A stretch of DNA of 64,000 nucleotides from Trypanosoma brucei (taxonomy: Eukaryota). This document shows, piece after piece, positions 1 through 36,096 of the stretch. The notes below the pieces were generated by a model. That model saw only the letters and a list, made by a program, of their open reading frames with translations. It had not been told where the DNA came from and searched no databases. The position numbers and the translations under genes are program-made. The stretch spans positions 1,056,001 to 1,120,000 of the forward strand of contig CP000066.1 in the NCBI GenBank assembly GCA_000002445.1, read 5' to 3'. Within the stretch, counting starts at the first letter, position 1. Every line of letters starts with the position of its first letter.

Positions 1-3000
1 TGGATTGCAAGTTGCAACATGTTCTTGCCCCGTATGTTGTGGCTAGGAGGGCCGTGAAGCGATACGGCTGCTGTCGGGGTGCATCAAATAGTATTAATGT
101 GGACTGTTCAGCGTCAACCTGCCGGGGTCGTTTTGAAGAAGATTTTTGTGGTATTGAGTCCGTGGCAGATGCAGGACCAGCAGGCTTTGGCCACAACGAC
201 CAGCACACGGAGAGGGGTTTGGACGTTGAGTACTTTCCAGCTTCTCGTTTGAGCGGTAGATACGTTCTGGTTTATTTGACTTCACCGTCTGGGTCTTCGT
301 TTACCAACCATGGGCCTGATTGTGTGATGCGGACAACAGAAAGCTTATGCTCGCCTTTGCTGACGGCTTCTCCTCGCGTTGGAACGCCTGTGCCGAGTGC
401 CAGTTCATCAACTGGGAGGGGATCTAGTGCGTCTCTTCCCATTCTGACTCAGGAGAAGACTGGTACTTCACCTTCCGCGCCGCTATGCCCTGTGGCGTCC
501 TTGCTCTCGCGTTTCTGCATATATTTTGGCTGTCAAACAGAAAGCAGGGATGCTGAGCGTATGTCCCGTTTTGTTGTGTTGGAGGTGCGGCAGGGGATAA
601 GTGTGGAGCCGAGGTGGGAATCTTTGCACAACATGGAAACTAGAAACAGGGCGTCGGCGTCTTTTGGGGATGCTGGCGCTATATCCTTCTCAAGGGCTGT
701 TTCGCCGAAGGGAGTCGATGGAGCCGCATTTACTGAAGACTTCAAGGTCAATGATGCGCTTACAGATCTTTCCACTGCGGACCAAAAATTTGGTGGTTGG
801 TTTTATCTTGAAAACTCAGCGGCATATAGGTGTGTCATTCAGAAATACAATGTTTCTTCTTGGCCGGCGATTTTACTTTTTGATCCGGCGGGGGAGCTTT
901 TAACGGCACGGGCGTATGACCATATAGAGCGTGAAATCTCTACCCTTAGCACGAGCGACGACCCAAACATATTAGCGGTAGTAGATTCGAGGGCAGAGCA
1001 ACACATGCAAGAAGTGGTGGGGATAGGTCCTTATGCAGGTTTTCGGTCTGGATTTCCCTGGATGACACCAGATGCGGGGCGTGATGAGGACAGGGGATCG
1101 AATGCGGTTGATGACGAGGTAGAGGGGGCACCACTTTTGTCTCTTGTCAGGTGGTTGTTGCGGCACGCACGACGCGTCGGGGAGAGTTGTGAAGTGGGTG
1201 CAACTTACCCGCCGGAAGACTCGTGTAATGTGCCCGAGCAACGTTGTCTTGACTCGTGCATGGATGGAGCCACGCACCTTGCACTGTACTTTGGTGCCGT
1301 CTGGCACCCAGCGACCAAACGTTTCTTACCCAAGCTAAAGCGTTTATGGTCAGCCGCCTGCGAAGGTGGTGATGACTGCTGTGTACTTGACGATGACGCT
1401 GGCCGAAACAGTTCTGACGGTGAGGGGGCTGCCGCTTGGGAAGGGGGAAAAAGGGCGTTGAGTGCGTTTGTCGCCGACACTGGGAGCCTCTATGAGCCTC
1501 TGGGCATCGAATCGTGGAGAAGGGGAATGACAAATGACGTCTGTGCTAGTGTCAGCACAGCGGATAGCGATGCGCCATACATACCATCCCGATGTTCGGC
1601 TGTGGAAACGCCAATGGGTTCACCCAAAGAGCACCCGCCATCCTTTCAGAGCCCTACACCGACAGTCGAAGGCCCGCTGGTTTCACCTAGGGTGTTTCGT
1701 AGTGAGTTAGCAGAGGAGAAACAACCCGAGGGATCTCATCACTTCCAAGTAGTGTTTGTCAGTTGCGATATGGACGTGTCCCAGTTGAAGTCTTCGCTCA
1801 CTTCCATGCCGAGTTCGTGGCTATTCGTCTCGTCCGTCCTGGCACCTCAAGCACAGGGTGTGATCAGGGCCTGCTTGGAGTTTTTCGATGTCCGCGTGTT
1901 TCCACGCCTCGTGGTGCTGGACACGTCGCATCGAGTCGGCTTGCAGCATGATGACGGTGGGTTGTCCAAGGTGTGGTCGCGATATCCAATAGCTTTGAAG
2001 GTTGTACGCTCGCACGGGGAGAGATCTGTTCTGAATGGAAGTGGTTTGAGAGAGTTGCTTTCCGGAGATGATCTTAACGACAACGTGGTTCCACAGAGAG
2101 AGGCGAGCACGGGGGAGTGTGGCATCGATGGCTCCGCCAGGCTGCTTGCCCATGGCATCATCACTAACGAGTTGTTGCACCAAGGCTATTTGCATTCTAT
2201 GATGAGGTCTGTCCTTGGGCAAGGAGGATCTCTTTTTGTGCTTTGCTGCATCGGAAGTATTTGCCCCGATCTCCACCAGGAGTGTGTGGCTTCTTTGCGT
2301 GAAGCGTGCACGTCTTGGGCTCAGGAAACGGGACGGTTCTCTGAAGGGGTGCCGAGGCATACGCTAGGTTCGTTAACACTAGGAAAACCGTCGCAAATGA
2401 CAGTAATGGAGGCATCAACGGTGTGTGCAGGGGATTTAACAGGGCCAGCTACTCTTGCTACTGTTTCCCCACTCTCGTGTTTTATAAGGGCCGATTTGAC
2501 GATTAGCAATAGTGGGAGGTCGAGCGGGGAGGTGGCCTCACCTCCTCTGGAGCGTGTCACGACGAGTGTGGATGACAACCGCTCATCGGCCGTTTATTTT
2601 GTGGATGCCATCAGTCTTGTGCGGGGACATGAAGGCAACAGTGGAGAAGGGGCAGGGGAGGGAATCACCCGAAGTGGGCGTCGAAGCGAACTTTGCACAG
2701 AGGGGGGTTTGTCGCAGGAAGATAAGTCACTGCTTCAAGAATATGTAATCTCAGAAGTTTTGGAAGCCAATGAGCATTTCGTACCACCATTTGAAGGCGA
2801 GCCTTTTCTAGTCTACTTGCAGTGGCCTGAGCGGCGTGTGGATGTACTTCGACGCATCGATGACTCTGAGCCACCCTTGAATACGGGTGGTCCTTCGGCG
2901 CGGTCCCCATCTGTCACTGCTTCTGCTAACACCTTGATCCCGGCTTCAGGGACTCCATCGCCCGGCGCAGTGGAGGTCGGAGCTCCCGCCGAGGTTCCCC

Positions 3001-3074
3001 GCAGGTCGCCGCTATGCTCATCCGCACTGGTGAAATCGTTCATTGTGCGGTGTAACATGAAGCGAACTTGTTAA
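1..3074 (+). CDS. Large S/P-rich protein (5' partial, runs off window start) with nucleoredoxin/tryparedoxin-like thioredoxin-fold repeats that lack a CXXC active site
   Basis: Open frame continues to base 3 with no upstream stop; stop at 3072-3074. Motifs resembling tryparedoxin/nucleoredoxin: 'LALYFGAVWHPATKRFLP' (cf. 'YFSASWCPPCRGFTP'), 'FQVVFVSCDMDVSQLKSSLTSMPSSWLFV...VRVFPRLVVLD' (cf. 'FEIIFVSSDRSEESFKQYF..MPWLAVPF...GIPTLIVLD'), 'SSWPAILLFDP'. No WCPPC/CXXC present. Confidence 0.5.
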   Translation, partial: DCKLQHVLAPYVVARRAVKRYGCCRGASNSINVDCSASTCRGRFEEDFCGIESVADAGPAGFGHNDQHTERGLDVEYFPASRLSGRYVLVYLTSPSGSSFTNHGPDCVMRTTESLCSPLLTASPRVGTPVPSASSSTGRGSSASLPILTQEKTGTSPSAPLCPVASLLSRFCIYFGCQTESRDAERMSRFVVLEVRQGISVEPRWESLHNMETRNRASASFGDAGAISFSRAVSPKGVDGAAFTEDFKVNDALTDLSTADQKFGGWFYLENSAAYRCVIQKYNVSSWPAILLFDPAGELLTARAYDHIEREISTLSTSDDPNILAVVDSRAEQHMQEVVGIGPYAGFRSGFPWMTPDAGRDEDRGSNAVDDEVEGAPLLSLVRWLLRHARRVGESCEVGATYPPEDSCNVPEQRCLDSCMDGATHLALYFGAVWHPATKRFLPKLKRLWSAACEGGDDCCVLDDDAGRNSSDGEGAAAWEGGKRALSAFVADTGSLYEPLGIESWRRGMTNDVCASVSTADSDAPYIPSRCSAVETPMGSPKEHPPSFQSPTPTVEGPLVSPRVFRSELAEEKQPEGSHHFQVVFVSCDMDVSQLKSSLTSMPSSWLFVSSVLAPQAQGVIRACLEFFDVRVFPRLVVLDTSHRVGLQHDDGGLSKVWSRYPIALKVVRSHGERSVLNGSGLRELLSGDDLNDNVVPQREASTGECGIDGSARLLAHGIITNELLHQGYLHSMMRSVLGQGGSLFVLCCIGSICPDLHQECVASLREACTSWAQETGRFSEGVPRHTLGSLTLGKPSQMTVMEASTVCAGDLTGPATLATVSPLSCFIRADLTISNSGRSSGEVASPPLERVTTSVDDNRSSAVYFVDAISLVRGHEGNSGEGAGEGITRSGRRSELCTEGGLSQEDKSLLQEYVISEVLEANEHFVPPFEGEPFLVYLQWPERRVDVLRRIDDSEPPLNTGGPSARSPSVTASANTLIPASGTPSPGAVEVGAPAEVPRRSPLCSSALVKSFIVRCNMKRTC

Positions 3075-3494: not shown

Positions 3495-4571
3495 ATGTCT
3501 TCTGGTGTCCCTGTTTCATCGCAGTGGCCACCTGTCAGAGGTGGGCTGATCATCTTGCGGGCTGCCTTCTCTGGTGCACGTCAAAGTCTTGATGTCGTGA
3601 AGTTTCTGAGCTACGTGGGGTCGAGTGCCGAGGTGAGTCGTAATCTTCGGTCTTGCACACTTGTCAACTTTCTTTTCTTTTTCGGCATTTGGATTTCTTC
3701 TATCGTATTTTCTCCCTTGTGGAGCCTTGCCGTGACTTTGATGCGGGGGCGCTCGACATTGGCTGGTGACCCGGATGCGATCACAAATTCGGCGTCGTTG
3801 AGTAACGTCAATCGTGTTGCGGGAGGAGCCACAGGGGTCGTGACTATATTGTGGACGTGTGTATTTTATTTTGTGTGGGTTTTCCCTATGTACGGAATTA
3901 CACTTCTCTTTGGTATACGTTGGTACAACGCGCTGTACGCAGCTGCGAATAGTGAGAAGCGAAGGCGTGCCCTTCTGATGGCGGCCGCCAGAAGCCCCGG
4001 CAGGCCGGTGGTGCCCGTTAGGGGAGCTGCGGCCGGTGCCGGTCCCAAGCCAACCGCATCCTCCCTCTCATTTAGTGATGTCGTCGTATCCCTCACTGAA
4101 ACTTTGTTTAAGGTTGTTGCTACCAGCTTGTGCACTGTTGTAATGACGGTGGTAGGGACCATTCTCCCCGTGCCCCTGGGCGCATGTGTAGACGTGGCGA
4201 TGAGAAGTTGGTTGCACGCTTTCTATGTGTTTGACTACCGCGTTTCTTCACAGTACGTGACCGATAGGGTTACACAGCGACGCAACTACGTGGGGCTTTC
4301 ATCTGCTATTGAGTTTTTTGAGGCAAATTGGGCGTACTTTCTCGGGTTTGGAGCGTCGCGCTGCCTCGTTACCGGTGTATTGGATTTGACGGGCATAGTA
4401 ACATCGTGGTTTGCCAAAGAAGCCGCTGTGTCAGTGCTATTTGGGGCCCATGTTGTACTTTCTGTTGAAGCAAAACTTCCCCCGCGCGCGCCATTCAGTA
4501 TTCCCATGTTCACTCCTTTTTTTATACTCTGTGACAAGATTATAAGGGCGGTTGTGCATGTGGCGCAATGA
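3495..4571 (+). CDS. Hypothetical polytopic membrane protein (approx. 6-8 predicted TM helices)
   Basis: ATG at 3495; 358 aa; multiple long hydrophobic segments (e.g. LVNFLFFFGIWISSIVFSPLWSLAV, VVTILWTCVFYFVWVFPMYGITLLFG, TSLCTVVMTVVGTILPVPLGACV); coding-like GC versus AT-rich flanks. Confidence 0.55.
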   Translation: MSSGVPVSSQWPPVRGGLIILRAAFSGARQSLDVVKFLSYVGSSAEVSRNLRSCTLVNFLFFFGIWISSIVFSPLWSLAVTLMRGRSTLAGDPDAITNSASLSNVNRVAGGATGVVTILWTCVFYFVWVFPMYGITLLFGIRWYNALYAAANSEKRRRALLMAAARSPGRPVVPVRGAAAGAGPKPTASSLSFSDVVVSLTETLFKVVATSLCTVVMTVVGTILPVPLGACVDVAMRSWLHAFYVFDYRVSSQYVTDRVTQRRNYVGLSSAIEFFEANWAYFLGFGASRCLVTGVLDLTGIVTSWFAKEAAVSVLFGAHVVLSVEAKLPPRAPFSIPMFTPFFILCDKIIRAVVHVAQ

Positions 4572-5366
4572 TGGCCCTTGAACATGGGAGACATCTTCGG
4601 ACTAATGTGTATGGATGGACGAGTGGAAAATATTAGCAATACGTGCATCTACAAATGCAAGCAGACGCCTAACACTGGTTGCATATTTCTACATGTGTGT
4701 ATGTGAACTGTTCAAAAGTCCCCGTGTCTGCCTGCATTTTTATATACGCGTATTGCTAATATTTCTTGAGTGCGATTATTTTTCCCCTCTTTTTTTCACT
4801 TTTTCTTTTTTTTACCTCTTGCTGCCCACCATGCAAATGGGATGAGCGATTCACTTTACTTCTTTCCTCCCCTTTTGTCGAGGTGTGTGATTTCCTCCTG
4901 ATGAGGGAAGAAGGCATTTTTTATGACACCGTTTGTTACATATCAACTGTTGGAGATTCAATATGTGTGTGTGTATCTGGGTGGCAGAAGGGAAATTGGG
5001 GTGTCGCACGGTTTGCCGTGCATTGTTCCCCCGCCATTTTTTGCTCTTGTGCTATATCACTATTATCGTGTTACCCCTTTCTTCATCCTTACCGTTTTTG
5101 GCCCCCCTCTCGTTTGTTTTCCCTCTTGTGTTGTGGAAAAAATAAAAATAAACATGTTAATCTGAGTGGCACGACAAGAAACCGGTGAAAATTTGGCAAC
5201 CCACGTGCGTGTGCGTGTGGGCTTGAGAGTTTGTTGACAAGCACAAAAGGGGAAAAGGAGCGCTGAGGAACTTAGTTAAGGAACAGAACGCTAACATTAG
5301 GAGCGGGAGCAGGTTGTGACCGCCGTAACTTACATCTAAAATTACGTACACACCCATATACATATA

Positions 5367-10234: not shown

Positions 10235-10507
10235 GATACCTACTGCACCTCTTTTAGTTGTTGCGACGCACGCCATTGCCGTTATTTTAGGCATGATGGC
10301 ATTGTTATTGTCGTTATAGTTCAACAGGAGAAACCTCTTCACCGTGAAGCGATGTTCCTCTTCTTTTTCCCTCTTAACATCGTCAGATTTTTTTTTTTTG
10401 CTCCGCATCACAATAGTGTTTAGGAAGTTTAGCCTCTCCATATTAATTGCTTGACGCAGTCAAACACGCGTTTGAACTTCTGGTGGGTAGAGGTGATAGG
10501 TCCACCG

Positions 10508-10527
10508 TCCTTTGTTTTTTTGCAGCC
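10508..10527 (+). promoter_or_regulatory. PolyY-AG trans-splice acceptor immediately upstream of the Sec16-like start codon
   Basis: cctttgtttttttgcag then ATG at 10556; the ORF-track N-terminus (from TTG 10451) translates this tract and is probably UTR. Confidence 0.5.
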
Positions 10528-10555
10528 TGTAGACAAACCCGTTGCTGCCACGATA

Positions 10556-13500
10556 ATGAATACAAACCGGCCGAACACATCTGGCGTTCCCTCTTCTTCC
10601 TCCACTGCCGGCCCCTTGGCTTTACGGAGCGGAAGCACCGCAGGGGTTGTTGGGGGAACTGACGCTGGTAGAAGCGGCAGCAGATCAATGGATTATAACC
10701 CGTTCTCTCTCATGGATGTTGGGACGGCGAAGATTGGGTTTGAACAATTCCATGGGGTGCCGTCGTCAATGCCGATGCAACAGCAACAGCGCGGGGTGCC
10801 AACAACAGCCACGTCCATGGGCTCTGCTGTTGACTGTCAGCTTCGCAAGTCTTCGGCAGGAACCCAACAAGGAGACCACTCATACTACCAGCAACAGCGG
10901 CAACCTTCTCTGTCCCAACCTCAACAGCGCACGAATCTTTCGCTGGATTTGGCGAGAGTCACCCAGTTGGCATCACAACGCAGCGGCTCAGCCATTACAA
11001 CCACACGACAAGATATCGTGACACCATCCTCCGCGAACCGCTCGGTTTCTCAGAGCTCTGCTCTGGATTTAAAAACCAGGGGGGGCTCTCTAGATACCGT
11101 CACGTCCATGCGCTCTGGAACAGATGGGGAGCCACATGGTAGAGTTGCGAAGCGTTCAGCAATCTTTAGTAACTTCCTCAAAAGGGATCCCCCAGACTTT
11201 TTGAAACCGTCGCCAAACACCTTACTGCGGCGACAAGGGTCAAGCACAGCGGTGACCGCACGTGGGCTTTTTGGTGACCAGTCTCGCTCTGGCAGCACCG
11301 CGACAAACCCAGACGCGCACGTGTCGCGTCCGCAACACCAGGAACAACTACTGGACCCCTCGCCATCGCAAGGGTACTCTCCAGGGTTTGTGCTCTACAC
11401 AGCGAGGGAAAGGGACCGCGTCAAACCTGCATTCTTCAGTCATTCTGCATTGACAGCTCGACCGAGTGCTGAGGATACTTCAACACGGTTTGTTTCATCT
11501 GAGCAGTGTGTTTCCCCCCTCCCGAGCAGCACGAATCAAGCGACAGCTTCGCACCTTCCCCAAGGACCCCCGCTGGGCGTGAACAACCCTGGGGCGACAG
11601 AGCCTCACTTTACTGACAGTGGAAGCGCCTCAACCGTTGTTTCAACGGCCACTGGGACGCATCTGCCCCATGGTTCAGATTCTGTTGTTTCTGCTCCGAA
11701 TGCACTCACCAGTGATTTTCATGTACCCCAAATGGACATAGCCGTGAGAGGTGTGTTGGGAGATACGAGGTTATCTAACGCCACGACATCGTCAGCATCA
11801 CAGAGTCTTGCCTACCTAACTCCAGGTGCTGAGGTTGCTGTCAGCGAAAATTATGCTGAGAAAAACAATATTCTGGTTAGCAGGCCACCTTCAGCTCCTC
11901 ATGCTCACATGCCGTTGCCGGCGGATCCGGGTGTGGGAAGCGTCCTCTCGGCGGACAACGTGGCCATGAATCGGGGTGATGCTCTGGGGCTGCCAATGCC
12001 GCAAGGCATCCCAAATGATGGGTTGAGTCCAAATGGAACCGAAGAAACGGCTTTGGCTCTTCCTCCTCCTCCTTTTCCTGGGTTTGGGCATCCCCATAAG
12101 GTATGCCCCGCTGCTGTTGTGCCTGCCGGTGATGACGTTGCTGCGCCTCATGTAACCTCCGCTACGCACGGCCTTGGTTTCCCGCCCACGGGCCGCCAAC
12201 GGCAGGAGCGGACGGAACACGATACACAGGCTTGTGTGTTTATCGACGGCTTTGACCCGAGCGAAGCCCCCCCAGCTGCGCCGTCCTATGGGGATGCCGT
12301 AGACGGTTCGTCTTCGCAAGAGTGGCACGATGGTTCGCTGCAGGACGCGGTTGCCACAGCGCCTTCTAATGTGGGGTCCGAGGCTTTGCTATTTGAGGGC
12401 CCAACTCAGGCAGGGGAAGTTGGTACTAACATGTGTCCCGTTGAAGAGGGGACATCTCCGGAAGCGCGGCTGCCGGCTTTAGATATGGCTGCTCTCCCTG
12501 TGTCCAGCCGCCGTGAAGGGAAAGGTTGGGGACAACAACATCGTCCACGTGGTGGAGCCCCGTGTTTTGCCGTATTTTCTCCTACGGGCTGTGTTATTGC
12601 AGTGTTTAACGCTCCCAATCCCTCCGTGAAGCCCAGGTTTGTATGCAGTCGTGTCGCGGACATACTTTCTGGGAAGGCGAAAGGTATGAACCCTTCCAAA
12701 GTGGGTGAAGACTATGTAACGACCCTTCGCGTTTCGGCTGCATTCACCCTTAGAAAAATCAATGAAAACAAAGTTCCACTGACGTCTCTCCGCGAAGCCG
12801 TCCAGCAAGTGCCCGACATCCTTCCGCTTCTAAGGGGCGTTTTGTCCTACGCGCTGCGTGACCCGTTGCCTGACTGGCGTAACGGTGGACAGAAGGAGCT
12901 TACCAAAATGCTCTCGGAGGTGGCTGAGCAGGTGCCCCCCTCCAGTGTGATGAACCCTATTCGGCTGTCCGACCCAAATTTGTTGAAGAGGGACCCGGAA
13001 CAGGGTCTGCGGGAGGTGCAACGGTTGTTGCTTATTGGAGAGCGTGAGGCTGCCGTGGGGGTGGCTATGGAGTTTCAGTTATACACGCATGCCATTATTA
13101 TTTCGATGGTGTGCCCCACCAAAGAGCAATACATGGATGTAATCCGTACCGTTGTTGAGAAAGAGTTAAGCCCCCTTTCACCTCTTGCTCACGCCTACTG
13201 TACGTTTAACGAGCTACCGCTTCCTGGATTCGCGAGTTCGCCAACATCTACGTTGCCCAGTGCACCGACGGGAGGGTGTGAGGTTTGCGTTCGGCAGTCC
13301 TGGGTGCAGCACGCGGCACTGTTTGTGTCTAACTTCACTAGGGAAAGTGCGGTGGGCTTGGTACAGCTGGGAGATGCCCTTGTAAAAGAAGGGTTGATTG
13401 ACGAGGCCTATTGTTGTTTTCTGCTCGCTCATCTTACTCCGATGGGAAATGTTGCCCCTCAGCAGCTACCACAACCCCAACAGCAGCACGTCATGAATCT

Positions 13501-14719
13501 TCTTCGTGTGCGACTTGGCGCATTGGGTGGGCACTGCCGTCCTGACGGTGTGCGTGTGGTTCTGACGCCGAAATTGCTGTTTCTAGCTGATGTTGTAGAC
13601 AACATTCGCTGTAACCTTGAAGTGTCTGCACAACCTGCAGCAACGGAAGGGGAGGGTTTAGTGATGCGTCACGGACTTCCCGCTCGCTCGCCTGCCAGCA
13701 AAGTTGTGTTCTGCTATTTGCAAATGTTATGGTTACAGGAGGTGGGTCTGCATGATATGGCGGATCCTTTCATGGCACACACACTCCGGATGGCACCGAC
13801 GTCATCCAAGAACTCGGCACCATTCACTTTGAACCGCCTGCTCGCCTCCGGACCCCCTGTCCCTGCGCCAGCCACTGCAACCGATGCTGCCGTCGCACCT
13901 GTCCCCATTCCCACCCCTGGTACGCCTCAGCCGAAAACGGCTCCACCAGCTCCTGGACTTCTAAACAAAGGGATCGGACCAAGGTTTGGTGCCCAGACGT
14001 CACAAAGAGTACTGCCGCGGATAGGACCAGACGGGTACCGTGTAACCACGATGCCCACTGCCCCGCAGACGTCGCCGCCGGTGCCAATGCTAGCAGGAGC
14101 GTTTACGCCCAACGCACCGGGAGGCGCCCAGACCGCAGGCTCGTCCATACCGCCACCGCCTGCCTCATTCCAGTCAAAAGTAGTGTCTACTGCGCCACCT
14201 CCTCCACCTCTTTCGTGCCAGGTGAAATCAGTCCCTGAAGGCGGTGCGGTAGAGAGTGAACCTACCAACCCGAACTCGGCCAGTTCCTCTTCCACTTCGT
14301 TCCCTGCTGCGCCACCCACTACCGCTCGCGGCCGTCCCGCTGAGCCTGGCCCAACTCAAGATCCCGGAAACAACGAGCGAACACAAGAGCCAACGAAGCA
14401 GCAGAGACAACAGCCGCCCCGCTCAGGCTCTCTTGGTGCCCTCGCCAGTTTCTTGTTCCGGCGCAGCGGCTCCAAAGACAACGAAGCGAAAAAGGACGAA
14501 CCAAAGAAGATGATCATTGACACTGAGAAGCCTCCTAAGTTTGACCCCACGAGGGGTTGCTATCTCTTTCCCGAGTCTGAAGAGGATAAGAAAGTGGCAG
14601 AGATGATCAAGGCGGGTCCTATGATGCGATTTTCCGTGAAGCAGCAAGCCCCGCAGGGACCGGTTAACCGCCGAATGCCCGTAAGGACGAAATATGTGGA
14701 CACATTTAACTCCTCCTGA
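10556..14719 (+). CDS. SEC16: Sec16-like COPII/ER-exit-site scaffold protein (Pro/Ser/Gln-rich, about 1387 aa)
   Basis: First ATG in frame at 10556. Central block 'LLIGEREAAVGVAMEFQLYTHAIIISMVCPTKEQYMDVIRTVVEKELSPLSPLAHAYCTF' resembles the Sec16 central conserved domain ('[57 protein letters not shown]'); long disordered P/S/Q-rich flanks typical of Sec16. Confidence 0.5.
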   Translation: MNTNRPNTSGVPSSSSTAGPLALRSGSTAGVVGGTDAGRSGSRSMDYNPFSLMDVGTAKIGFEQFHGVPSSMPMQQQQRGVPTTATSMGSAVDCQLRKSSAGTQQGDHSYYQQQRQPSLSQPQQRTNLSLDLARVTQLASQRSGSAITTTRQDIVTPSSANRSVSQSSALDLKTRGGSLDTVTSMRSGTDGEPHGRVAKRSAIFSNFLKRDPPDFLKPSPNTLLRRQGSSTAVTARGLFGDQSRSGSTATNPDAHVSRPQHQEQLLDPSPSQGYSPGFVLYTARERDRVKPAFFSHSALTARPSAEDTSTRFVSSEQCVSPLPSSTNQATASHLPQGPPLGVNNPGATEPHFTDSGSASTVVSTATGTHLPHGSDSVVSAPNALTSDFHVPQMDIAVRGVLGDTRLSNATTSSASQSLAYLTPGAEVAVSENYAEKNNILVSRPPSAPHAHMPLPADPGVGSVLSADNVAMNRGDALGLPMPQGIPNDGLSPNGTEETALALPPPPFPGFGHPHKVCPAAVVPAGDDVAAPHVTSATHGLGFPPTGRQRQERTEHDTQACVFIDGFDPSEAPPAAPSYGDAVDGSSSQEWHDGSLQDAVATAPSNVGSEALLFEGPTQAGEVGTNMCPVEEGTSPEARLPALDMAALPVSSRREGKGWGQQHRPRGGAPCFAVFSPTGCVIAVFNAPNPSVKPRFVCSRVADILSGKAKGMNPSKVGEDYVTTLRVSAAFTLRKINENKVPLTSLREAVQQVPDILPLLRGVLSYALRDPLPDWRNGGQKELTKMLSEVAEQVPPSSVMNPIRLSDPNLLKRDPEQGLREVQRLLLIGEREAAVGVAMEFQLYTHAIIISMVCPTKEQYMDVIRTVVEKELSPLSPLAHAYCTFNELPLPGFASSPTSTLPSAPTGGCEVCVRQSWVQHAALFVSNFTRESAVGLVQLGDALVKEGLIDEAYCCFLLAHLTPMGNVAPQQLPQPQQQHVMNLLRVRLGALGGHCRPDGVRVVLTPKLLFLADVVDNIRCNLEVSAQPAATEGEGLVMRHGLPARSPASKVVFCYLQMLWLQEVGLHDMADPFMAHTLRMAPTSSKNSAPFTLNRLLASGPPVPAPATATDAAVAPVPIPTPGTPQPKTAPPAPGLLNKGIGPRFGAQTSQRVLPRIGPDGYRVTTMPTAPQTSPPVPMLAGAFTPNAPGGAQTAGSSIPPPPASFQSKVVSTAPPPPPLSCQVKSVPEGGAVESEPTNPNSASSSSTSFPAAPPTTARGRPAEPGPTQDPGNNERTQEPTKQQRQQPPRSGSLGALASFLFRRSGSKDNEAKKDEPKKMIIDTEKPPKFDPTRGCYLFPESEEDKKVAEMIKAGPMMRFSVKQQAPQGPVNRRMPVRTKYVDTFNSS

Positions 14720-15343: not shown

Positions 15344-18300
15344 ATGATGGTGTGCCTTACAATTTTCCTTGATATCTCTTTCCGTATTTGTTTACCCGTT
15401 TTCAATGCGCACTACAGTAAAAGAAGGAAAGGGGGATCGGGGATGCCTATCCCAACGGTAACCATGGGGCCAGACCCGATTTCTGAGCCACTCCTGCATG
15501 ACGCCGACAGGGACGAGATTCCATTCTGTGTAGCTCGTAATATTGGGCGGGAAATGAGACGTGGGTCCAGCAGCGACAGCGGCAATCGTTGGAGACAGGT
15601 GGAACCCGTGTTGGAGTTACAGATTGAAACGCTCTCTACGACGTCAGCGGGGTGGTTTCTGAACTCGTGGTATGGCGCCCTTGTGGTGGCGCTTGTCCTG
15701 CAATCTTTGGTCTCTTTTCAGTGGGGGATGGTGAATATATGTGACAGCTCATCGGTAAGCATTCGCAACCTGGATTCGTGGAGAAGTTCTTGCGTGGAAA
15801 GGTACGAGTATCAGTCGGCTGACCTTAACTGTTCGGGGACTAAGGTTCTGGTGCAGGCATGTGATCCACCGCCACACTCTTCGCATCGTGCAATGCTCCC
15901 ATCTCTTCTAGGATGCGGAGCGGTACCGTTATCAGCACCATCTTACGCGGAGGACTCACCGGGCCCTAATCACGACGGGATGAGCATGCGGAGTGGAGGC
16001 TATATTCCAAAGCAACAACAGCAGCGTCTTTTCAACCTACGGTGGGTAGACCGAAACGTGATTGATATACCGGCAAGTAAGGCCAACCGCTTTCCGCGCG
16101 TCGTTTTCAGTTTAGCATCGCCGCAGGACGCTATTTCTGGAGATATTCCCTTTAAGACTTATCAGTTGCAGGTTGTTCTGGAAAAGTTTCCGGTGCATGC
16201 GCCTTCGGAAGGAGATATAAATGTTAACAGTGGTACCAGCCGGCCGGCAACCACTGGCGTGTACCGATACAACACAACAACCACGTGTTTTCGGACCACA
16301 CCACGATGCTCTTCAGTGGTGTTGCCGCAGGATGTCGTGGTGGTTGGCGGGAATTCGAGAATCACATTAACCATCATCGGTGCTGTGGAGGAGCTGGCGT
16401 CTGTCGCTTCCATGTCCTCTGTTGGTATTGCGTTTCAGCGTTCTTTCTACACCATCTTTACAATTGCATGTCGCTACACCCTCATTGTGATCTCCGGTGT
16501 TCATTTGATCTTCTTTCTTTACCGAATTCGGCGGACGCAGACAATCTATGAGCATTACTGGGTGACGGCCTTGAACGTGGCACTGATACTTTACCTTGAC
16601 CCATTTTTCGCCGCCGGAGTTGACGACGAAAACGGTGTAGAACTTTATCGCTTCTTTGAGTACCACATGCCGAATTATTTCATTGCCTTTTTGAACTGTT
16701 TTATTTTTGCGCTTGTTGGAGCCTCCATTAACGCTTCTGGGGAGGTAGGAGAGACTAAAAGGAGACTGAAGGGGGAAACCGTTCCAGGGTGTGACGCTCC
16801 TGTGCTTGAGGAACCGTCGCCTCGCCCGGGTCGGCCACTAGCGACCGTTCCTCCCGATATGCCTCCTTCTTCACCTGGTGGCGATCCAAGGGATTTGCAA
16901 CGAAAGGAAAAAAATTCATGGACAAGTGAGGCTCATGACAGTTCTGTATTACTTGCCTCCCCTGATGGGGATCGTGCGGCACTCGTGCGACGACGTGGTA
17001 TGCCTCTGTGGGTTACCGTTTCAATCACTTACTACTTCGTTATTCTCGTAGGTCTTGACGTGGGGAGGGCGTTCGTTGAGAATTGGGATTGGGGAACCGT
17101 TGCGGATTGTGCTACATTCTGTTGCCGTTACCTTGCGTCAATGTTCTACACAATGCTCCTGTTGCTTGTTTTTGCGTCGAACGTGCTACTTTTATGGCTC
17201 AAACGAAATCTGGGCAGACAGCCCTACCTAGAGACACGACCACGGCAGCTGGCATGCCGTGTGTTTATCTTCGTGTTTGCTAGTGCTATGGTCTATTTCG
17301 TTGTCCAGGCTGTTCTTATCGATCTACTCTACCCTCATATTGTGCGGATTGTCGTCTATCAGCCATTCAGTCAGCTCGCCCCCGTGATGGTTTCATCTTG
17401 CTTTGTGAGTCACATAACATTTGTGTACACACCCACCACTGCCTCACGGAGGGTGCCCATACGGCCAAACAACCCCATGTGGCGCCGTGTCGTTTGGTCA
17501 CGGCAGTGGTATCAGTGGCTTCAGTTTCACGGTGGCATATTGTACATATTTCACAACGAAGAGCAGGAACGATACTTCAACTTTTTACAGAACAAGCAGA
17601 GGTTGGCGAAAGTCCTTCACCGTCGGTCGGGTCGCGTCCCTGTCGCCACTGAGCACGAGGGTGTAGGGCCCATTTGCTCCACGGCAGAGTGTGTTTGGAA
17701 TGGTGACGGACCACTAGGGACATACGATGCGGAGAGCTCTGATAGTTCAGACTCCAGTGGCGGCGAAAGCAGCTTTTCTTATAATAGCAGTCACAATGAA
17801 GATGATGATGTTGCGTCAAGCGGACGTGGTTCGCGGCGTCGCAACTGGTCGCGCATTCGGAGGGGTGTTTCGACACTGTTCGAACGTGCGGAGTGTCGGT
17901 TCGTGGAGAAATCTGCTTTGCTTCTGGATTCTCTCGAGGGGGCCATTCTTGACCCTTTGCAGTCTCTCCAACTTGGTGGCAATAGGCGTGTGCCCTTTTT
18001 TAACCTCGAGGCCGCGATTGATTGCCTGAATCTGTCGTGGGAGGCATACGCACCTCTGTGTAGTGATGTAGATGCTTCGAGGCGAGATGCTGATGGCGGG
18101 GGGAATGGCACCTCATCTTATTGCGCTGACTGCACTCCCTGTGCGTTTCCCCCAGAGACAAGGGGAGAAGGCGATAGTGATAAAAGCACCTTAGACGAGC
18201 GGGCATTTTTAGAAGGGGCTGTGGACAGCAGTGCAGTGACGACCGTCGATAACAGGCCCATTGATGGTGATTTGCAATCTTTTACAGTTGCGAGGGAGGG

Positions 18301-19192
18301 GTCGTCCACCAGTGTGGGACCTGCTATGTGTACCAAACAATACGGTTATAAGCCAATCGCTGTGTTTGAGGCACTTGATGTAGTGGCTGTTTGTGCTGTC
18401 ATGGACACTGAATTTTTGCACCATCGTGGCAAGGTCCCTCGAATCGTTATCGCATTCCGAGGAACAGCAAATATGAGCAACGCCAGGGAGAACATTCGTG
18501 TTCGGCAGCGTCCGTGGCGGGAAGTAGACGGTGTCCGGCAGTGGTGGGGCCTCACGAAGCGTGCAAGAGTCCACTCGGGTTTCCTTAACATTTGGATCTC
18601 ACTGAAGCCTGCTGTGCTTCATACACTTCACAGGTTCTTAAAGGAGAATTCTTCCACTGTTTACCGTGTGTTTTGCACGGGCCACAGCATGGGGGGTGCT
18701 GTGGCTTGTCTTTGTGCCTACAGTGTGCGGCGTATGCTGCGGGAGATAGAATACCCCTTGGATGAGGTAACGGTTTACACGTTTGGTCAGCCCCCGATGG
18801 GGAACGCAGCGTTTCAAACCGCTTACGACAAGGCGATTCCCCGAACGTTTCGTGTTGTAAACGAGAGTGACGCGGTGTCCCTCTTTTCCCTGTTCGGGGG
18901 CACGCACGTTGGCACCGAAGTGGATATTGACCGCCATGGCAATTACATCTGTAAGCCCATGTTTATTGAGATGTTATTCAGACCCACGGGAGGGAAGGGA
19001 TTTGCTTTAAAAAATCATACCCTTGCTGCCTATGCCCAATCTCTTAATGCCGTTGCGGATCGGAACAGCGGTAGGGAGTGTAAGGTGCGCTGCCTGCAGC
19101 CGTATGTGCGTGATGTTGTAGACCCATCACTTAGCGCTCTTTCCAGTGCTGCCGCCAACGTCTCTGTTGAACACCAAGCTGCGAACGTGTAA
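15344..19192 (+). CDS. Polytopic membrane protein with C-terminal class-3 (fungal-type) lipase domain; DAGL-like architecture (paralog A)
   Basis: ATG 15344; 1282 aa; multiple TM helices in N-terminal half; C-terminal 'RIVIAFRGTANMSN', nucleophile elbow 'GHSMGGAVACLCAYSV' (GXSXG), 'VVNESDAVS', 'DRHGNYI' consistent with a Ser-Asp-His lipase_3 triad. Confidence 0.75.
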   Translation: MMVCLTIFLDISFRICLPVFNAHYSKRRKGGSGMPIPTVTMGPDPISEPLLHDADRDEIPFCVARNIGREMRRGSSSDSGNRWRQVEPVLELQIETLSTTSAGWFLNSWYGALVVALVLQSLVSFQWGMVNICDSSSVSIRNLDSWRSSCVERYEYQSADLNCSGTKVLVQACDPPPHSSHRAMLPSLLGCGAVPLSAPSYAEDSPGPNHDGMSMRSGGYIPKQQQQRLFNLRWVDRNVIDIPASKANRFPRVVFSLASPQDAISGDIPFKTYQLQVVLEKFPVHAPSEGDINVNSGTSRPATTGVYRYNTTTTCFRTTPRCSSVVLPQDVVVVGGNSRITLTIIGAVEELASVASMSSVGIAFQRSFYTIFTIACRYTLIVISGVHLIFFLYRIRRTQTIYEHYWVTALNVALILYLDPFFAAGVDDENGVELYRFFEYHMPNYFIAFLNCFIFALVGASINASGEVGETKRRLKGETVPGCDAPVLEEPSPRPGRPLATVPPDMPPSSPGGDPRDLQRKEKNSWTSEAHDSSVLLASPDGDRAALVRRRGMPLWVTVSITYYFVILVGLDVGRAFVENWDWGTVADCATFCCRYLASMFYTMLLLLVFASNVLLLWLKRNLGRQPYLETRPRQLACRVFIFVFASAMVYFVVQAVLIDLLYPHIVRIVVYQPFSQLAPVMVSSCFVSHITFVYTPTTASRRVPIRPNNPMWRRVVWSRQWYQWLQFHGGILYIFHNEEQERYFNFLQNKQRLAKVLHRRSGRVPVATEHEGVGPICSTAECVWNGDGPLGTYDAESSDSSDSSGGESSFSYNSSHNEDDDVASSGRGSRRRNWSRIRRGVSTLFERAECRFVEKSALLLDSLEGAILDPLQSLQLGGNRRVPFFNLEAAIDCLNLSWEAYAPLCSDVDASRRDADGGGNGTSSYCADCTPCAFPPETRGEGDSDKSTLDERAFLEGAVDSSAVTTVDNRPIDGDLQSFTVAREGSSTSVGPAMCTKQYGYKPIAVFEALDVVAVCAVMDTEFLHHRGKVPRIVIAFRGTANMSNARENIRVRQRPWREVDGVRQWWGLTKRARVHSGFLNIWISLKPAVLHTLHRFLKENSSTVYRVFCTGHSMGGAVACLCAYSVRRMLREIEYPLDEVTVYTFGQPPMGNAAFQTAYDKAIPRTFRVVNESDAVSLFSLFGGTHVGTEVDIDRHGNYICKPMFIEMLFRPTGGKGFALKNHTLAAYAQSLNAVADRNSGRECKVRCLQPYVRDVVDPSLSALSSAAANVSVEHQAANV

Positions 19193-20070: not shown

Positions 20071-23000
20071 ATGGAGAGGAGACAGGCGGGCGGGAATTTG
20101 CTGGACTCTATGAATTCTGCATCAGTGCACGTGAACGACCTTCCAGCTGAGTTCCCCCGTTTTCCACCGCAAACAATTAGCACGGGCGTTGCTTCTCAGA
20201 GTCACCGCAAAAAGTCACCGGCTTCGGGACCCCCGATGAACGGGAGTCATTCTTTTTCTCGTCATACAAACACAGGAACTGTACCTGCCATACCGCGCGC
20301 CCCACGGCGGTGCCGACTTACAAACAACGCACCATTCCCGGACCCCGCCTGCGTGGACTGCCAAAGGCATAGCTGCTCAAGACATTCAGGCGGCAGCACG
20401 TTGGCGGGGGGAGTGGAGCTGCAGATTGAAGGGCTTACGCGCTTCGTTTGGCGGTGTATTTACTTTTTATGGTTGGCAGCCCTTGTCGCCGGTATAGTTT
20501 TGCAATCCTTGCCCTCTATTACATGGAGGGTGCTGGACATCTGTGGAAGGGATGCGCCTGATATGTGGAAATATGGGACATGGAATAGCAACTGTGCGAC
20601 CATAGAGCTGGAGGACAGACACACCGATACCTACCGTGTTCAGTGGAATGGGCGACCATATTCTGTGGACTTTGGTGACCCGTTGCTGCGGTTCCGTAGC
20701 CTCGTAATTAACCTGGCCAGTCCTGACGACTGGGAGGTTTTCCATCCTGACGAGCGCAGGTTCACACTGAGGGTTGCGATTCCCTTTATGGAGGAGAACA
20801 GCAACTGGTCTACTGCCCCGTTGCCGATAGTGTGCCGTCGTGGGGACGATCGATGCGTTTACATAAACCTGCCGCCGGGTGCGGTTTTGAATGACACTGG
20901 TGGAGGACGCGTGTCTCTATCTCTTAGCGATGTCCCCGGAAGTATCGCTCGAAATATAAATAACTCAGCGGTTGGTATCCTTTTTCAAGGGCGTGCTTAC
21001 GCCCTTACAGTGTTGATTTGGCGCTACATAGCCCTTACAATAACGGTTTTGCATGCTATACGGTTCGTAGTGAACCTGAAATACAACAACAGCCTCTATG
21101 AACAGTGGTGGGTTTTGGTGCTGCTGTTGGCGTCTGTGTTGTATCTCAACCCCCTCACCGCCCTTGCCATATCTCCAGATCGGCTTCCACTGCCGCTGGA
21201 GTTCCTTGAACTTCACGTACCATGGTGGTTTGTAGCGGTGGTGGTGAGCTATATGTTTTCTGTTATTACTGCGTCCATGCCGCGCGCTGCGAATCCCACG
21301 AAACAGGAAGGCGCTAAAAACCTGGGATGCCTTAGCCGCATGAAGGCCTGCTTCTGCCGCAGCCGCAGCATATATGACCCTCCGTTGTGGACGAAGGTAG
21401 TGGGAGTGCTTTTTATCATTATAGCCATTGGGCTTGACATAGCAGTGGCCTGGCGGTGCTGCTCTGCAACGCTACATGGGAGGGGGTCGGGTAAGAAAAT
21501 CTACATTTACCTTCTCTGTTCTCTTTTCGGCTTTGGGTCGCTGGTCTGTTGTATTATGCTCTACCGTCTACGTCGGAGCATGTCAAAGAAATCATACCTG
21601 GATTCGAGACCTCAGCAACTTGCCTGCCGTGTTTTCATGTTTATGTTCTTTACGGCCATCATTTTCAGTATTACACAATTCGCTCTGTTTTACGTGCTCG
21701 ATTTCAGAATCCCGGGTATGTTGGCGTGGCAACCACTTATACAGCTACCGGCGTTGTTGGTATGGCCAGTTTTGGTCAATGTCATGACTCTAATATACAC
21801 TACCCGTCACCGCCCAGAGACGGTTCCCGTTCATCCGCGAGACACGCGCTGGAAAGAAAGTGTCTGGCCTGACGATTGGTACCGATGGCTTGTTCGCCAT
21901 GGCGGCAGCATGTACATTTTTCATACAGAGAAGGAGGAGGCCTCCTTCAATTGGAAACAACTGGAGTACCGCGTACGGCGGTACCTTGTGAGGTTAAAGA
22001 GAAGGGGTAGTGTGCATAACTTATCTCTCCTTCTGCAGAGCATACCCAATGACTCTTCATCTCCACCGGTTGAGGGGCCGAGTGACCCCTCGATAAATTA
22101 TACCATTATGTGCTCCGTTCACTCCCGTCCCCAGGATATAGAGTTCTGGAAGGGTCTGAGAGAGTCGATTTGTAATCGAGGCGCAGCCGAGATTGTCAAC
22201 ATGGACATGACGTCCACGTGCTTCCTACCGTACGTTGAAGCAGGGAGGGAAAACGATTTGGGGCCCGAGAGACCGTCAGGCGCATCCCAAGTGATGAGAC
22301 AAAATGTTGGCAGGGAAGGAGGTGGGTCCCGAGCTCCGCTGCTAGAAAACGATGGGGGAGCTCTCAACGGTTCCGTGGCGTTGAGGTTGAGCTCCACCAC
22401 CGGGGATGCACCTCCCGGTGACGGGGAGCGTCGTCTGGGGTCTGTGGATGATCATTCAGAGGATAGCGGCGACGATGGAGGGTCAACTAATAACCCAAAG
22501 AGTGTGTGGCAAGCACTCCGTGGTGTAATTTCCGCGTCGGTGAGGGGAGCCGGGAGGAACTTATTCGAACGACCTGCTCATGCGTTTGAGCGTGCCGAAA
22601 CCTATCTTTTGGATGCTGTTCAGCAAAGGATGCACGAACCCCTGTACCTCCCGTTTTTCAATCTTGAGACAGCCATTGACTGCTTCAACATAGCGTTTGA
22701 ATCGTACAATTGGAAGGGACAGTCGCACGCCCGGGCCCAAGAAAGAAAGGTTGGAACCTCGGGCCGCTGCCGCGGCTCTTCAAACTACCGTTCAAATGCT
22801 CGCGAATCCGCTGCTTACCCCCGGGAAACGGACCCAGACGCGTGCAGCACGTCGCAAGGTGATGTTGAGATGCGCAAATTTTGCCCTAGTACAGAACAAC
22901 AGTCTGTGGCAGCCACTCCAGACCATAACGGGACGCCCACTATCGATGTGGAACAATACGGTTATAAGCCAATCGCTGTGTTTGAGGCACTTGATGTAGT

Positions 23001-35896: not shown

Positions 35897-35924
35897 TTCC
35901 TTTTTTTTTCCCCCTCTCCTGTAG
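35897..35924 (+). promoter_or_regulatory. PolyY-AG trans-splice acceptor upstream of RRM gene copy 1
   Basis: cctttttttttccccctctcctgtag; the ORF-track start 35851 is GTG. Confidence 0.45.
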
Positions 35925-36096
35925 CAACGCTTCAGTGAGTCGTTCGCACGTTATCTTTACGTTACAGAGCAAATTAACAATCAAGCGTGCCTTCACTAAA
36001 AGGAGAAAAAAAAGAACAATAAAGGAAGTAACTTACAGCGACATTATTACCCCTATTATTATAATCTCTGCACGAATTACGCGGTACCAAAAGCAC

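What the first reader, a model, noticed from the sequence alone, without database searches (positions are those of the whole stretch)
1..3074. Large protein built from redox-dead nucleoredoxin/tryparedoxin-like thioredoxin folds
ORF1 contains at least two or three segments that align with the two conserved motifs of tryparedoxin/nucleoredoxin domains. The first motif is a hydrophobic beta-strand plus YFxAxWCPPC. The second is 'xVFVSxDxxxxxxxxxxxxMPWxxxPF...IPTLVVLD'. Every candidate active-site position is substituted, for example WHPAT instead of WCPPC, and no CXXC exists anywhere in the 1020 aa. Kinetoplastid redox metabolism is built around tryparedoxins, so a giant scaffold of catalytically inert tryparedoxin folds with S/P-rich linkers may be a pseudo-enzyme: a docking platform for peroxidases or trypanothione-dependent partners rather than an oxidoreductase.
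Basis: inference. Interest (0 to 1): 0.5.

Follow-up and report, generated by a model that had tools for sequence, protein, structure and literature searches.

The report
Cysteine-less triple tryparedoxin-fold protein of trypanosomes
This Trypanosoma brucei gene encodes a conserved 1024-residue protein made of three thioredoxin-type folds, two derived from tryparedoxin and one resembling a PDI b' domain, which are all split by long disordered loops and lack redox cysteines; it is a real, uncharacterised pseudo-oxidoreductase, but of a kind already known in principle.

Summary
Window 1-3074 (+) is the whole CDS, minus the A of its ATG, of T. b. brucei TREU927 XP_843972.1/Q57WB6, probably Tb927.3.3800.

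- **Disordered stretches lie mostly inside the folds.** They make up about half of the protein.
- **No redox cysteines.** No ortholog, from Trypanosoma to Leishmania, has cysteines at the active-site positions. In D2, WCPPC is W-H-P-x-x throughout (W-D-P in T. vivax).
- **Conserved gene order.** The gene lies two genes downstream of the canonical tryparedoxin genes in T. brucei, T. cruzi and L. major.

"Redox-dead" is well supported. The proposed docking of peroxidases or trypanothione is not: the tryparedoxin residues for those contacts are not conserved. I found no paper on this gene. It is a new variant of a known kind, of moderate interest.

The parts
1..3074 (+). Complete CDS (minus the A of the ATG) of a 1024-aa protein, T. 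b. brucei TREU927 XP_843972.1 / UniProt Q57WB6. The gene ID Tb927.3.3800 is inferred. Residue n starts at base 3n-3.
   Evidence: identical to P0006. for the start codon. for the gene ID.
1..1061 (+). Domain 1 (res 1-354): a degenerate tryparedoxin-type fold split by long insertions. Folded pieces are res 4-16, 75-97 (GRYVLVYLTSP, beta1), 164-198 (alpha1, beta2 VVLEVRQ), 249-318 (GGW ... WPAILLFDPAGELL, cis-Pro P289) and 347-354 (FPW, the C-terminal tryparedoxin motif). The active-site loop is replaced by a ~65-aa disordered insertion.
   Evidence: hhalign of the trimmed 12-ortholog alignment against the TXN/NRX family gives prob 97.4%, E 9.5e-12, covering TXN residues 23-142; shuffled or reversed controls give at most 1%. 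The PDB profile search alone was only E 0.17. AF2 pLDDT is 62-88 per 10-residue block in the folded pieces. Coordinates were checked.
1128..2069 (+). Domain 2 (res ~377-690): the best-preserved tryparedoxin-type fold. The N-half is res 412-455 (THLALYFGAVWHPATKRFLP). A ~120-aa disordered insertion (res 456-577) follows alpha1. The C-half is res 579-688 (QVVFVSCD, MPSSW, FPRLVV with cis-Pro P635, HGE).
   Evidence: Pfam Thioredoxin_8 at E 5.5e-10 and 3.9e-9. BLASTP to TbTXN1 in two collinear pieces. The PDB profile search hits tryparedoxins at 1e-6 to 1e-3. hhalign prob 99.7%, E 1.9e-25. Coordinates were checked.
1302..1316 (+). WHPAT, the counterpart of the tryparedoxin active site WCPPC. W, H and P are conserved in the orthologs (D instead of H in T. 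vivax). The resolving-Cys position is T, S or M.
2181..3071 (+). Domain 3 (res ~728-1024): a thioredoxin fold with no sequence similarity to TXN, closest to non-catalytic PDI b' domains. Its elements are helix 728-741, beta1 743-751 (LFVLCCIGS), alpha1 756-783, an insertion, beta2 865-869 (VYFVD), an insertion, alpha2 906-923 (LLQEYVISEVLE), beta3 935-942 (EPFLVYLQ), beta4 946-950, an insertion, and a C-terminal helix 1008-1023.
1365..1730 (+). The largest intra-domain disordered insertion (res ~456-577), given as an example of the low-complexity, poorly conserved stretches that make up about 54% of the protein.
   Evidence: pLDDT is below 50. Identity between T. brucei and T. cruzi is 18% in low-pLDDT stretches against 45% elsewhere. 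The insertions are expanded several-fold in Leishmaniinae orthologs.

Best explanation
The ORF is a genuine gene, conserved across trypanosomatids and probably Tb927.3.3800. It encodes a catalytically inert protein of three thioredoxin-fold modules.

**Shown.**
- Two modules (D1, D2) are diverged tryparedoxin-type domains. The third (D3) resembles a PDI b' domain.
- All three are interrupted by long disordered insertions that evolve fast.
- The redox cysteines are absent in every ortholog examined. The fold-defining tryparedoxin residues are kept: W39, P41, D71, the MPW motif, the cis-proline and the C-terminal FPW.
- The gene lies next to the canonical tryparedoxin genes in conserved synteny.

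**Inferred.**
- The gene arose from the local tryparedoxin gene cluster.
- The protein cannot carry out dithiol-disulfide exchange.
- It works as a non-catalytic binding or adaptor protein. The preserved active-site groove of D2, now carrying a conserved His, and the b'-like D3 would hold client proteins non-covalently. The disordered insertions would act as flexible tethers that may be regulated.
- It probably does not use trypanothione or the peroxidase-docking surface of tryparedoxin, because those contact residues are not conserved.
For: **Identity and conservation.** The protein is 100% identical to the TREU927 protein. Orthologs occur in T. cruzi, T. rangeli, T. grayi, T. vivax, Lotmaria, Porcisia, L. 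major and Leptomonas, all with the same conserved blocks. Identity is 45% in folded blocks and 18% in disordered stretches. pN/pS between T. b. brucei and T. b. gambiense is about 0.27, from only 11 differences.

**Folds.**
- Pfam Thioredoxin_8 at E 5.5e-10.
- The D2 profile hits tryparedoxins in the PDB at 1e-6.
- hhalign gives D1 97.4% and D2 99.7%, against at most 1% for controls.
- AF2 folded blocks have block-mean pLDDT mostly 70-92.
- Foldseek top hits are all tryparedoxins.

**Loss of catalysis.** C40 and C43 are replaced in all 12 aligned orthologs, and the S36/T47/Y80 network is lost. No CxxC is conserved.

**Synteny.** Tryparedoxin genes lie two genes upstream in T. b. gambiense, T. 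cruzi and L. major.

**Precedents.**
- Inactive, insertion-bearing TXN-like paralogs sit at the same Leishmania locus, and LiTXN5 was inactive in assays (PMC2935891, Text S1).
Against: - There is no direct functional, localisation or interaction evidence. The gene appears only in an orthology table of the spatial-proteomics paper and not in the stored TrypTag supplements.
- D3 rests on predicted structure alone.
- The domain alignments used for hhalign were trimmed by me to ortholog-conserved blocks.
- A strictly conserved W-H-P motif and one nearly invariant Cys in D3 (C762) leave room for some unconventional chemistry.
Confidence: 0.6

Rival explanations
1. The inert tryparedoxin folds would act as a docking platform that uses the tryparedoxin interaction surface to bind tryparedoxin peroxidases (2-Cys peroxiredoxins, GPx-type peroxidases) or trypanothione and its conjugates.
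For: D1 and D2 are true tryparedoxin-family domains. The groove-forming residues W39, P41, D71 and the cis-Pro are conserved in D2. The gene lies next to the tryparedoxin genes.
Against: The residues that Castro et al. 2010 list for trypanothione binding (R44, E72, R128) and for peroxidase contacts (E72, S38, E107) are not conserved. R128 is an invariant Glu in D2 and Leu/Tyr in D1, R44 is variable, and E107 is mostly R, H, K, S or T (PMC2935891 Text S1). Gene adjacency carries little functional meaning in trypanosomatid polycistrons (established knowledge).
Confidence: 0.12
2. The protein would be a structural cytoskeletal component, like the CXXC-less tryparedoxin-like proteins TrxL1 and TrxL2 that line the lumen of Toxoplasma cortical microtubules. 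The Trx folds would bind a polymer lattice or recruit other proteins to it.
Against: The similarity may only reflect shared membership of the Thioredoxin_8 family. The N-terminal helix that links neighbouring TrxL1 molecules was not looked for here. More than half of the protein is disordered, and over 4000 aa in one ortholog, which fits poorly into a microtubule lumen. There are no localisation data.
Confidence: 0.1
3. The protein would still be chemically active through a non-canonical site, for example a monothiol mechanism, or His-based or metal-binding chemistry at the conserved W-H-P motif.
For: W-H-P is conserved in nearly all orthologs and is W-D-P in T. vivax. A Cys in D3 (C762, 'LH..C') is nearly invariant. 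An unrelated centrohelid TXN-like protein has WHPTC.
Against: No Cys is conserved at or next to the active-site positions of D1 or D2. The WLC Cys in D2 is Phe in T. brucei itself. The activating hydrogen-bond network is lost. LiTXN5, a related degenerate paralog, was inactive in all assays.
Confidence: 0.1
4. The gene would be a decaying relic of tryparedoxin duplications with no function, or a mis-annotated ORF.
For: About half of the sequence is low-complexity and poorly conserved. No protein-level evidence was found in the supplementary tables held for two large T. brucei protein surveys.
Against: The ORF is intact, with the same conserved blocks in the same order, in both Trypanosoma and Leishmaniinae. 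Some motifs are invariant: GGW, WP, FPW, WHP, MP..W. Folded blocks are 45% identical between T. brucei and T. cruzi.
Confidence: 0.03

Closest known systems
Tryparedoxin (TXN1, Tb927.3.3780/3760; PDB 1o73, 6gxg), Pfam Thioredoxin_8
   Different: There is no WCPPC: C40 and C43 are replaced in all orthologs. The trypanothione-binding and peroxidase-binding residues and the hydrogen-bond network are lost. Each fold is split by insertions of about 50 to 120 aa, far longer in the 2000-5000-aa orthologs. There are three folds in one chain of 1024 to 5093 aa.
Inactive tryparedoxin-like paralogs of Leishmania (LiTXN5, LiTXN6, LiTXN7; Castro et al. 2010, PMC2935891)
   Same: They are degenerate TXN-like proteins with internal insertions and substitutions that preclude activity. 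LiTXN5 and LiTXN6 are encoded beside TXN1 and TXN2 on chromosome 29, and LiTXN5 was shown to be inactive.
   Different: They are single-domain proteins of 30 to 65 kDa, and some keep at least one active-site Cys or carry a TM tail. The present orthogroup (L. major P0097, 2453 aa, two genes downstream of TXN1) is not in that catalogue.
Nucleoredoxin (multi-module Thioredoxin_8 proteins of animals and plants)
   Same: It has several TXN-type modules in one chain. The best non-orthologous hits of the whole-protein profile are 300-490-aa proteins of this family with several matching stretches, and a separate word-index search returned a hit that its source names 'nucleoredoxin'. From my own memory, not tested here, mammalian nucleoredoxin also ends in a PDI b'-like domain.
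   Different: Nucleoredoxins keep at least one WC[PG]PC site: 60 of the 67 domains extracted from those hits carry WCPPC, WCGPC or WCAPC. Here there is none. No orthology is shown, and D3 has no sequence similarity to anything.
Toxoplasma TrxL1/TrxL2 (PDB 7miz), CXXC-less Trx-like microtubule inner proteins
   Different: They are small single-domain proteins of about 190 to 220 aa without disordered insertions. They are in a different phylum, and there is no evidence that the trypanosome protein is microtubule-associated.
Non-catalytic b/b' domains of the PDI family (PDILT, ERp27, ERp57, PDI)
   Different: There is no sequence similarity, no signal peptide or ER-retrieval motif is evident (my reading of the sequence), and the fold is interrupted by disordered insertions. 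The similarity rests on a predicted structure.

Membership tests
Thioredoxin_8 / tryparedoxin-nucleoredoxin family (fold membership) | A significant match to the family profile over the whole domain | tested here: met
   D2: Pfam PF13905 at 39.9 bits against a cut-off of 27; PDB tryparedoxins at 1e-6; hhalign 99.7%. D1: hhalign 97.4% with E 9.5e-12, with controls at 1% or less, although Pfam and the single-profile PDB search were not significant. D3: not met at the sequence level.
Thioredoxin_8 / tryparedoxin-nucleoredoxin family (fold membership) | The family-specific structural motifs: W of WCPPC, buried D71, MPW, cis-Pro, C-terminal FPW | tested here: met
   D2 keeps all of them in the 12 orthologs; FPW is degenerate only in T. 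brucei, T. vivax and one unnamed Trypanosoma-type ortholog. D1 keeps W86, the cis-Pro and FPW only.
Tryparedoxin (functional enzyme) | The redox-active WCPPC dithiol (C40, C43) | tested here: not met
   In D2, C40 is H (D in T. vivax) and C43 is T, S or M. In D1 the loop is replaced by an insertion. This holds in all 12 orthologs. The T. brucei protein has no CxxC.
Tryparedoxin (functional enzyme) | The trypanothione-binding residues R44, E/D72 and R128, and the S36/T47/Y80 hydrogen-bond network (Castro et al. 2010, Text S1) | tested here: not met
   R44 is variable. R128 is an invariant E in D2 and L/Y in D1. E72 is kept only in D2 of the long (2000-2700 aa) orthologs. S36, T47 and Y80 are replaced.
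Tryparedoxin (functional enzyme) | Trypanothione-dependent disulfide reductase activity | not testable with these tools
   This needs recombinant protein and Holmgren or peroxidase-coupled assays.
Nucleoredoxin | Several Thioredoxin_8 modules with at least one WC[PG]PC site | tested here: not met
   Two Thioredoxin_8-type modules are present, but no module has the site.
PDI-family b' domain (for D3) | A redox-inactive Trx fold that superposes on b' domains | tested here: inconclusive
PDI-family b' domain (for D3) | A hydrophobic substrate-binding pocket, and an ER location | not tested
   Model coordinates could not be inspected. No signal peptide or KDEL-type motif is apparent in the sequence (my reading).
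TrxL1/TrxL2-type microtubule inner proteins | Location in the microtubule lumen, dependent on SPM1 | not testable with these tools
   Only fold similarity was measured.

The most novel reading that the evidence does not exclude
Trypanosomatids would keep, next to their tryparedoxin genes, a dedicated pseudo-tryparedoxin. Its Cys-to-His groove (W-H-P) and b'-like domain would capture tryparedoxin clients or oxidised proteins non-covalently, and its giant disordered insertions would organise them. That would make it a regulator or hub of the trypanothione redox network, or of a cytoskeletal structure as with Toxoplasma TrxL1/2, rather than an enzyme.
Probability: 0.12. Interest if true: 0.65.

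Novelty: new variant of a known kind. Interest (0 to 1): 0.38.

Why it matters
The trypanothione-tryparedoxin system is specific to the parasite and is a drug target. A pseudo-tryparedoxin conserved across trypanosomatids and encoded beside the active enzymes is a candidate regulator or adaptor of that system, and it has escaped the published catalogue of tryparedoxin-like genes.

It is also an extreme case of Trx folds that tolerate very large disordered insertions inside the fold, hundreds to apparently more than a thousand residues in the longest orthologs. Such insertions hide domains from standard domain searches: Pfam sees only one of the three folds.

Against this, redox-dead Trx-fold proteins are a familiar category, and no function has been shown here.

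Tried and rejected
**Searches that gave nothing useful.**
- A single-sequence PDB search with the full protein gave no hits. Profiles trimmed of insertions were needed.
- Pfam on D1 and D3 alone gave nothing. PDB profile searches gave only E 0.17 for D1 and nothing for D3.
- The word-index homolog search with the concatenated conserved blocks (A5) failed to retrieve the orthologs and returned only two distant nucleoredoxin-like proteins. The exhaustive representative search was what found the family.
- The search for related loci on genome contigs was pointless. That collection holds only bacteria and archaea, and the pattern chosen was an artificial block junction.
- The afdb50 fold library was unavailable.
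- Tandem-repeat and Rfam scans of the window found nothing.

**Literature.** Searches for the gene IDs and accessions found no paper that treats this gene. The TrypTag supplements held as text do not contain the ID. The spatial-proteomics supplements list it only in an orthology table.

**Ideas considered and rejected.**
- D1 and D2 as a recent internal duplication: each is far closer to the TXN family profile than to the other (D1 against D2, P = 0.005).
- Absence of CxxC as evidence by itself: 31% of shuffled sequences also lack one.
- A large missing N-terminus: rejected.
Full report
**1. What is at the coordinates.**
Frame 3 of the + strand is open from base 3 to a stop at 3072-3074. The first two bases of the window are the TG of the start codon. 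With the Met restored, the protein is 1024 aa. It is identical to "hypothetical protein, conserved" XP_843972.1 of T. brucei brucei TREU927, which UniProt Q57WB6 auto-names "Thioredoxin domain-containing protein". It differs at 5 residues from the T. b. gambiense copy.

In the gambiense locus the reading frame opens only 8 codons upstream, and the annotated ATG is the first in-frame ATG. The N-terminal motif (L/M)QH(L/V)(L/F) is conserved in the orthologs.

The gene ID is most likely Tb927.3.3800, for two reasons.
- Sec16 (window 10451-14719, Pfam TPR_Sec16) is Tb927.3.3850 (PMC11858755), and counting genes back from it gives 3800.
- Tb927.3.3800 shares an orthogroup with TvY486_0303150 (PMC10361982 supplement), a number adjacent to those of the T. 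vivax tryparedoxin genes listed by Castro et al. 2010.

**2.
- Pfam Thioredoxin_8 matches the protein at E = 5.5e-10, 39.9 bits against a cut-off of 27. Its two stretches both fall in res ~420-450 and 579-646.
- BLASTP against T. brucei tryparedoxin, read from the upstream locus, aligns TXN 33-54 to res 429-450 and TXN 44-126 to res 564-649. This is one tryparedoxin fold with an insertion of about 120 aa after helix 1.
- WHPAT sits at bases 1302-1316.
- There is no CxxC among the 35 cysteines, but 31% of shuffles also lack one, so this count alone proves little.

**3. The family.**
An exhaustive profile search found 17 proteins at E below 1e-10.
- About 1000-aa orthologs occur in T. cruzi, T. 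rangeli, T. grayi and T. vivax.
- Orthologs of 2000 to 2700 aa occur in Leishmaniinae (Lotmaria, Porcisia, L. major, Leptomonas). One protein of unknown source is 5093 aa.
- An E-INS-i alignment shows the same short conserved blocks in the same order everywhere, separated by unalignable low-complexity sequence whose length varies several-fold.
- In T. brucei the low-confidence stretches make up 550 of 1023 residues. They are S/G/A/P-rich and 18% identical to T. cruzi, against 45% for the rest.
- Beyond the orthologs, the next hits (E 1e-7 to 1e-3) are nucleoredoxin-like multi-domain proteins.

**4. Three thioredoxin folds, not "two or three segments".**
I trimmed each putative domain to its ortholog-conserved blocks. 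I compared these with a tryparedoxin/nucleoredoxin family alignment of 68 domains by hhalign.

| Domain | Probability | E-value | TXN residues covered |
|---|---|---|---|
| D1 | 97.4% | 9.5e-12 | 23-142 |
| D2 | 99.7% | 1.9e-25 | 27-142 |
| D3 | 2.9% | not significant | none |

- Versions of D1 and D2 with reversed or shuffled columns give at most 1%.
- The D2 profile also hits solved tryparedoxins at 1e-6 to 1e-3. D1 reaches only E 0.17 against ResA-type Trx folds, and D3 hits nothing.
- The family-specific C-terminal FPW of tryparedoxin follows D1 in every ortholog (res 352-354). It also follows D2 in most of them, for example DPDGKQFPW in Lotmaria against DPDGANFPW in TbTXN1.

An AlphaFold2 model of the full protein (15-sequence alignment, mean pLDDT 52) has folded blocks with block-mean pLDDT mostly 70-92 that coincide with the conserved blocks.
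- Foldseek's top 21 PDB hits are all tryparedoxins or the related Wuchereria 16-kDa thioredoxin (E 1e-3 to 3e-2, TM 0.53-0.69 on the target).

The N-half of D1 (res 74-198) and all of D3 were missed. D1 and D2 are each much closer to the tryparedoxin profile than to each other (P = 0.005).

**5. Redox-dead, and ancestrally so.**
I mapped tryparedoxin's functional residues, as listed in Castro et al. 2010 Text S1, onto the 12 aligned orthologs.
- **D2, kept:** W39, P41, D71, P85/W86 and cis-Pro110 are invariant.
- **D2, lost:** C40 is His in 11 orthologs and Asp in T. vivax. C43 is T, S or M. R44 is variable. R128 is an invariant Glu. E107 is mostly basic or polar. E72 survives only in the long (2000-2700 aa) orthologs. 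S36, T47 and Y80 are replaced.
- **D1:** the active-site loop is replaced by a disordered insertion of about 65 aa. Only W86, the cis-Pro and FPW survive.
- **L. major and Leptomonas** also have G(A/D/G)WHPGM.
- **The only CxxC motifs** in any ortholog are non-conserved. One lies at res 44 of the T. cruzi-clade proteins, in the first insertion.

**6. Genomic context.**
- In T. b. gambiense the gene is preceded by two copies of a unit made of a 144-aa tryparedoxin gene (TXN1a/b) and a 286-aa gene.
- In T. cruzi a tryparedoxin gene and a 308-aa gene precede it.
- In L. major chromosome 29, TXN2, TXN1 and a 370-aa weakly EF-hand-like gene precede the 2453-aa ortholog.
- Downstream, Saf4/Yju2 and Sec16 are also syntenic.
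- Castro et al. place two further degenerate, insertion-bearing TXN-like genes (LiTXN5, LiTXN6) just upstream of TXN2 and TXN1.

The locus is therefore an old cluster of tryparedoxin paralogs. Origin of D1 and D2 by local duplication and fusion is a reasonable inference, but I did not test it by phylogeny.

**7. How it most likely works.**
*Shown:* the protein has three Trx folds, lacks the dithiol and the residues that activate it, is under purifying selection in the folded blocks, and evolves freely in the insertions.

*Inferred:* it cannot catalyse thiol-disulfide exchange and acts through binding. Two features suggest protein or peptide binding. One is the preserved groove architecture of D2 with a conserved His. 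The other is a b'-like D3, since b' domains are the substrate-binding modules of PDIs (established knowledge). The disordered insertions would then serve as tethers or regulatory regions.

No localisation, interaction or phenotype data were found.

**8. Novelty and verdict.**
Redox-inactive Trx-fold proteins are well known. Examples are PDI b/b' domains, ERp27, TrxL1/2 and LiTXN5-7. Automatic annotation already labels this protein as thioredoxin-domain-containing. Three things appear new relative to what I could find:
- the three-fold architecture, of which Pfam sees only one fold;
- the folds being split by very large disordered insertions;
- Cys-less sites conserved across trypanosomatids, with conserved linkage to the tryparedoxin genes.

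Castro et al.'s catalogue of TXN-like genes does not include it. I rate it a new variant of a known kind, of moderate interest (0.38). The structural claim is solid and the functional claim is open.

Noticed in passing
L001 1631-9506 (T. b. gambiense chr 3, directly upstream of the window): There is a tandem duplication of a unit made of the 144-aa tryparedoxin gene plus a 286-aa gene. A degenerate tryparedoxin fragment (L001 ~5019-5200, '...IPTLIKTNGETGAIIGTQAHTRVIGDPKGANFPWP') lies next to an assembly gap.
   Followed up: partly
L001 8646-9506; L002 8298-9224; L004 6007-7119; L003 3541-4665: A 286-374-aa gene always lies between the tryparedoxin genes and the giant TXN-like gene in Trypanosoma and Leishmaniinae. 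It has a weak EF-hand_7 hit in L. major and Porcisia. Its function is unknown.
   Followed up: no
window 15344-19192 and 20071-23769 (+): These are two adjacent paralogous proteins of about 1250 aa with a C-terminal class-3 lipase domain. The first also has a Wntless-like TM domain hit.
   Followed up: no
window 35851-37377, 41682-43463, 54465-55598 (+), and the AT-rich stretches 38-41, 44-51 and 56-58 kb: Three genes for RRM-domain proteins are separated by unusually AT-rich non-coding stretches (GC 0.25-0.31 against about 0.5 elsewhere). These are presumably very long UTRs or intergenic regions. No tandem repeats or Rfam hits were found.
   Followed up: partly
P0055 (Pterocystis sp., centrohelid, 142 aa): This stand-alone tryparedoxin-like protein has the motif YFGAGWHPTC. 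It carries the same Cys-to-His replacement at the nucleophile position as D2, but keeps the second Cys. The change is presumably independent.
   Followed up: partly
P0030-P0037, P0097, P0098 (Leishmaniinae and unknown kinetoplastid orthologs): These orthologs are 2 to 5 times longer (2044-5093 aa), apparently through expansion of the low-complexity insertions between the same conserved blocks. The organisms behind P0036 and P0037 (Logan assemblies) were not identified.
   Followed up: partly
P0002, P0004 and P0026, residue 44: The T. cruzi, T. rangeli and one related ortholog carry a CxxC (CDMC, CDEC, CEAC) in the first disordered insertion near the N-terminus. It is absent from T. brucei, T. 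grayi, T. vivax and the Leishmaniinae orthologs.
   Followed up: no
window 1821-2360 (-): A 179-aa antisense ORF lies inside the CDS. It is probably a chance ORF and was not examined.
   Followed up: no
window 3495-4571 (+): The next gene downstream (358 aa) has no Pfam hit here, but its T. cruzi counterpart carries an EI24 domain. It is probably Tb927.3.3810, listed as '2xTM hypothetical' among yeast two-hybrid hits of SF3a60 (PMC3961280).
   Followed up: no
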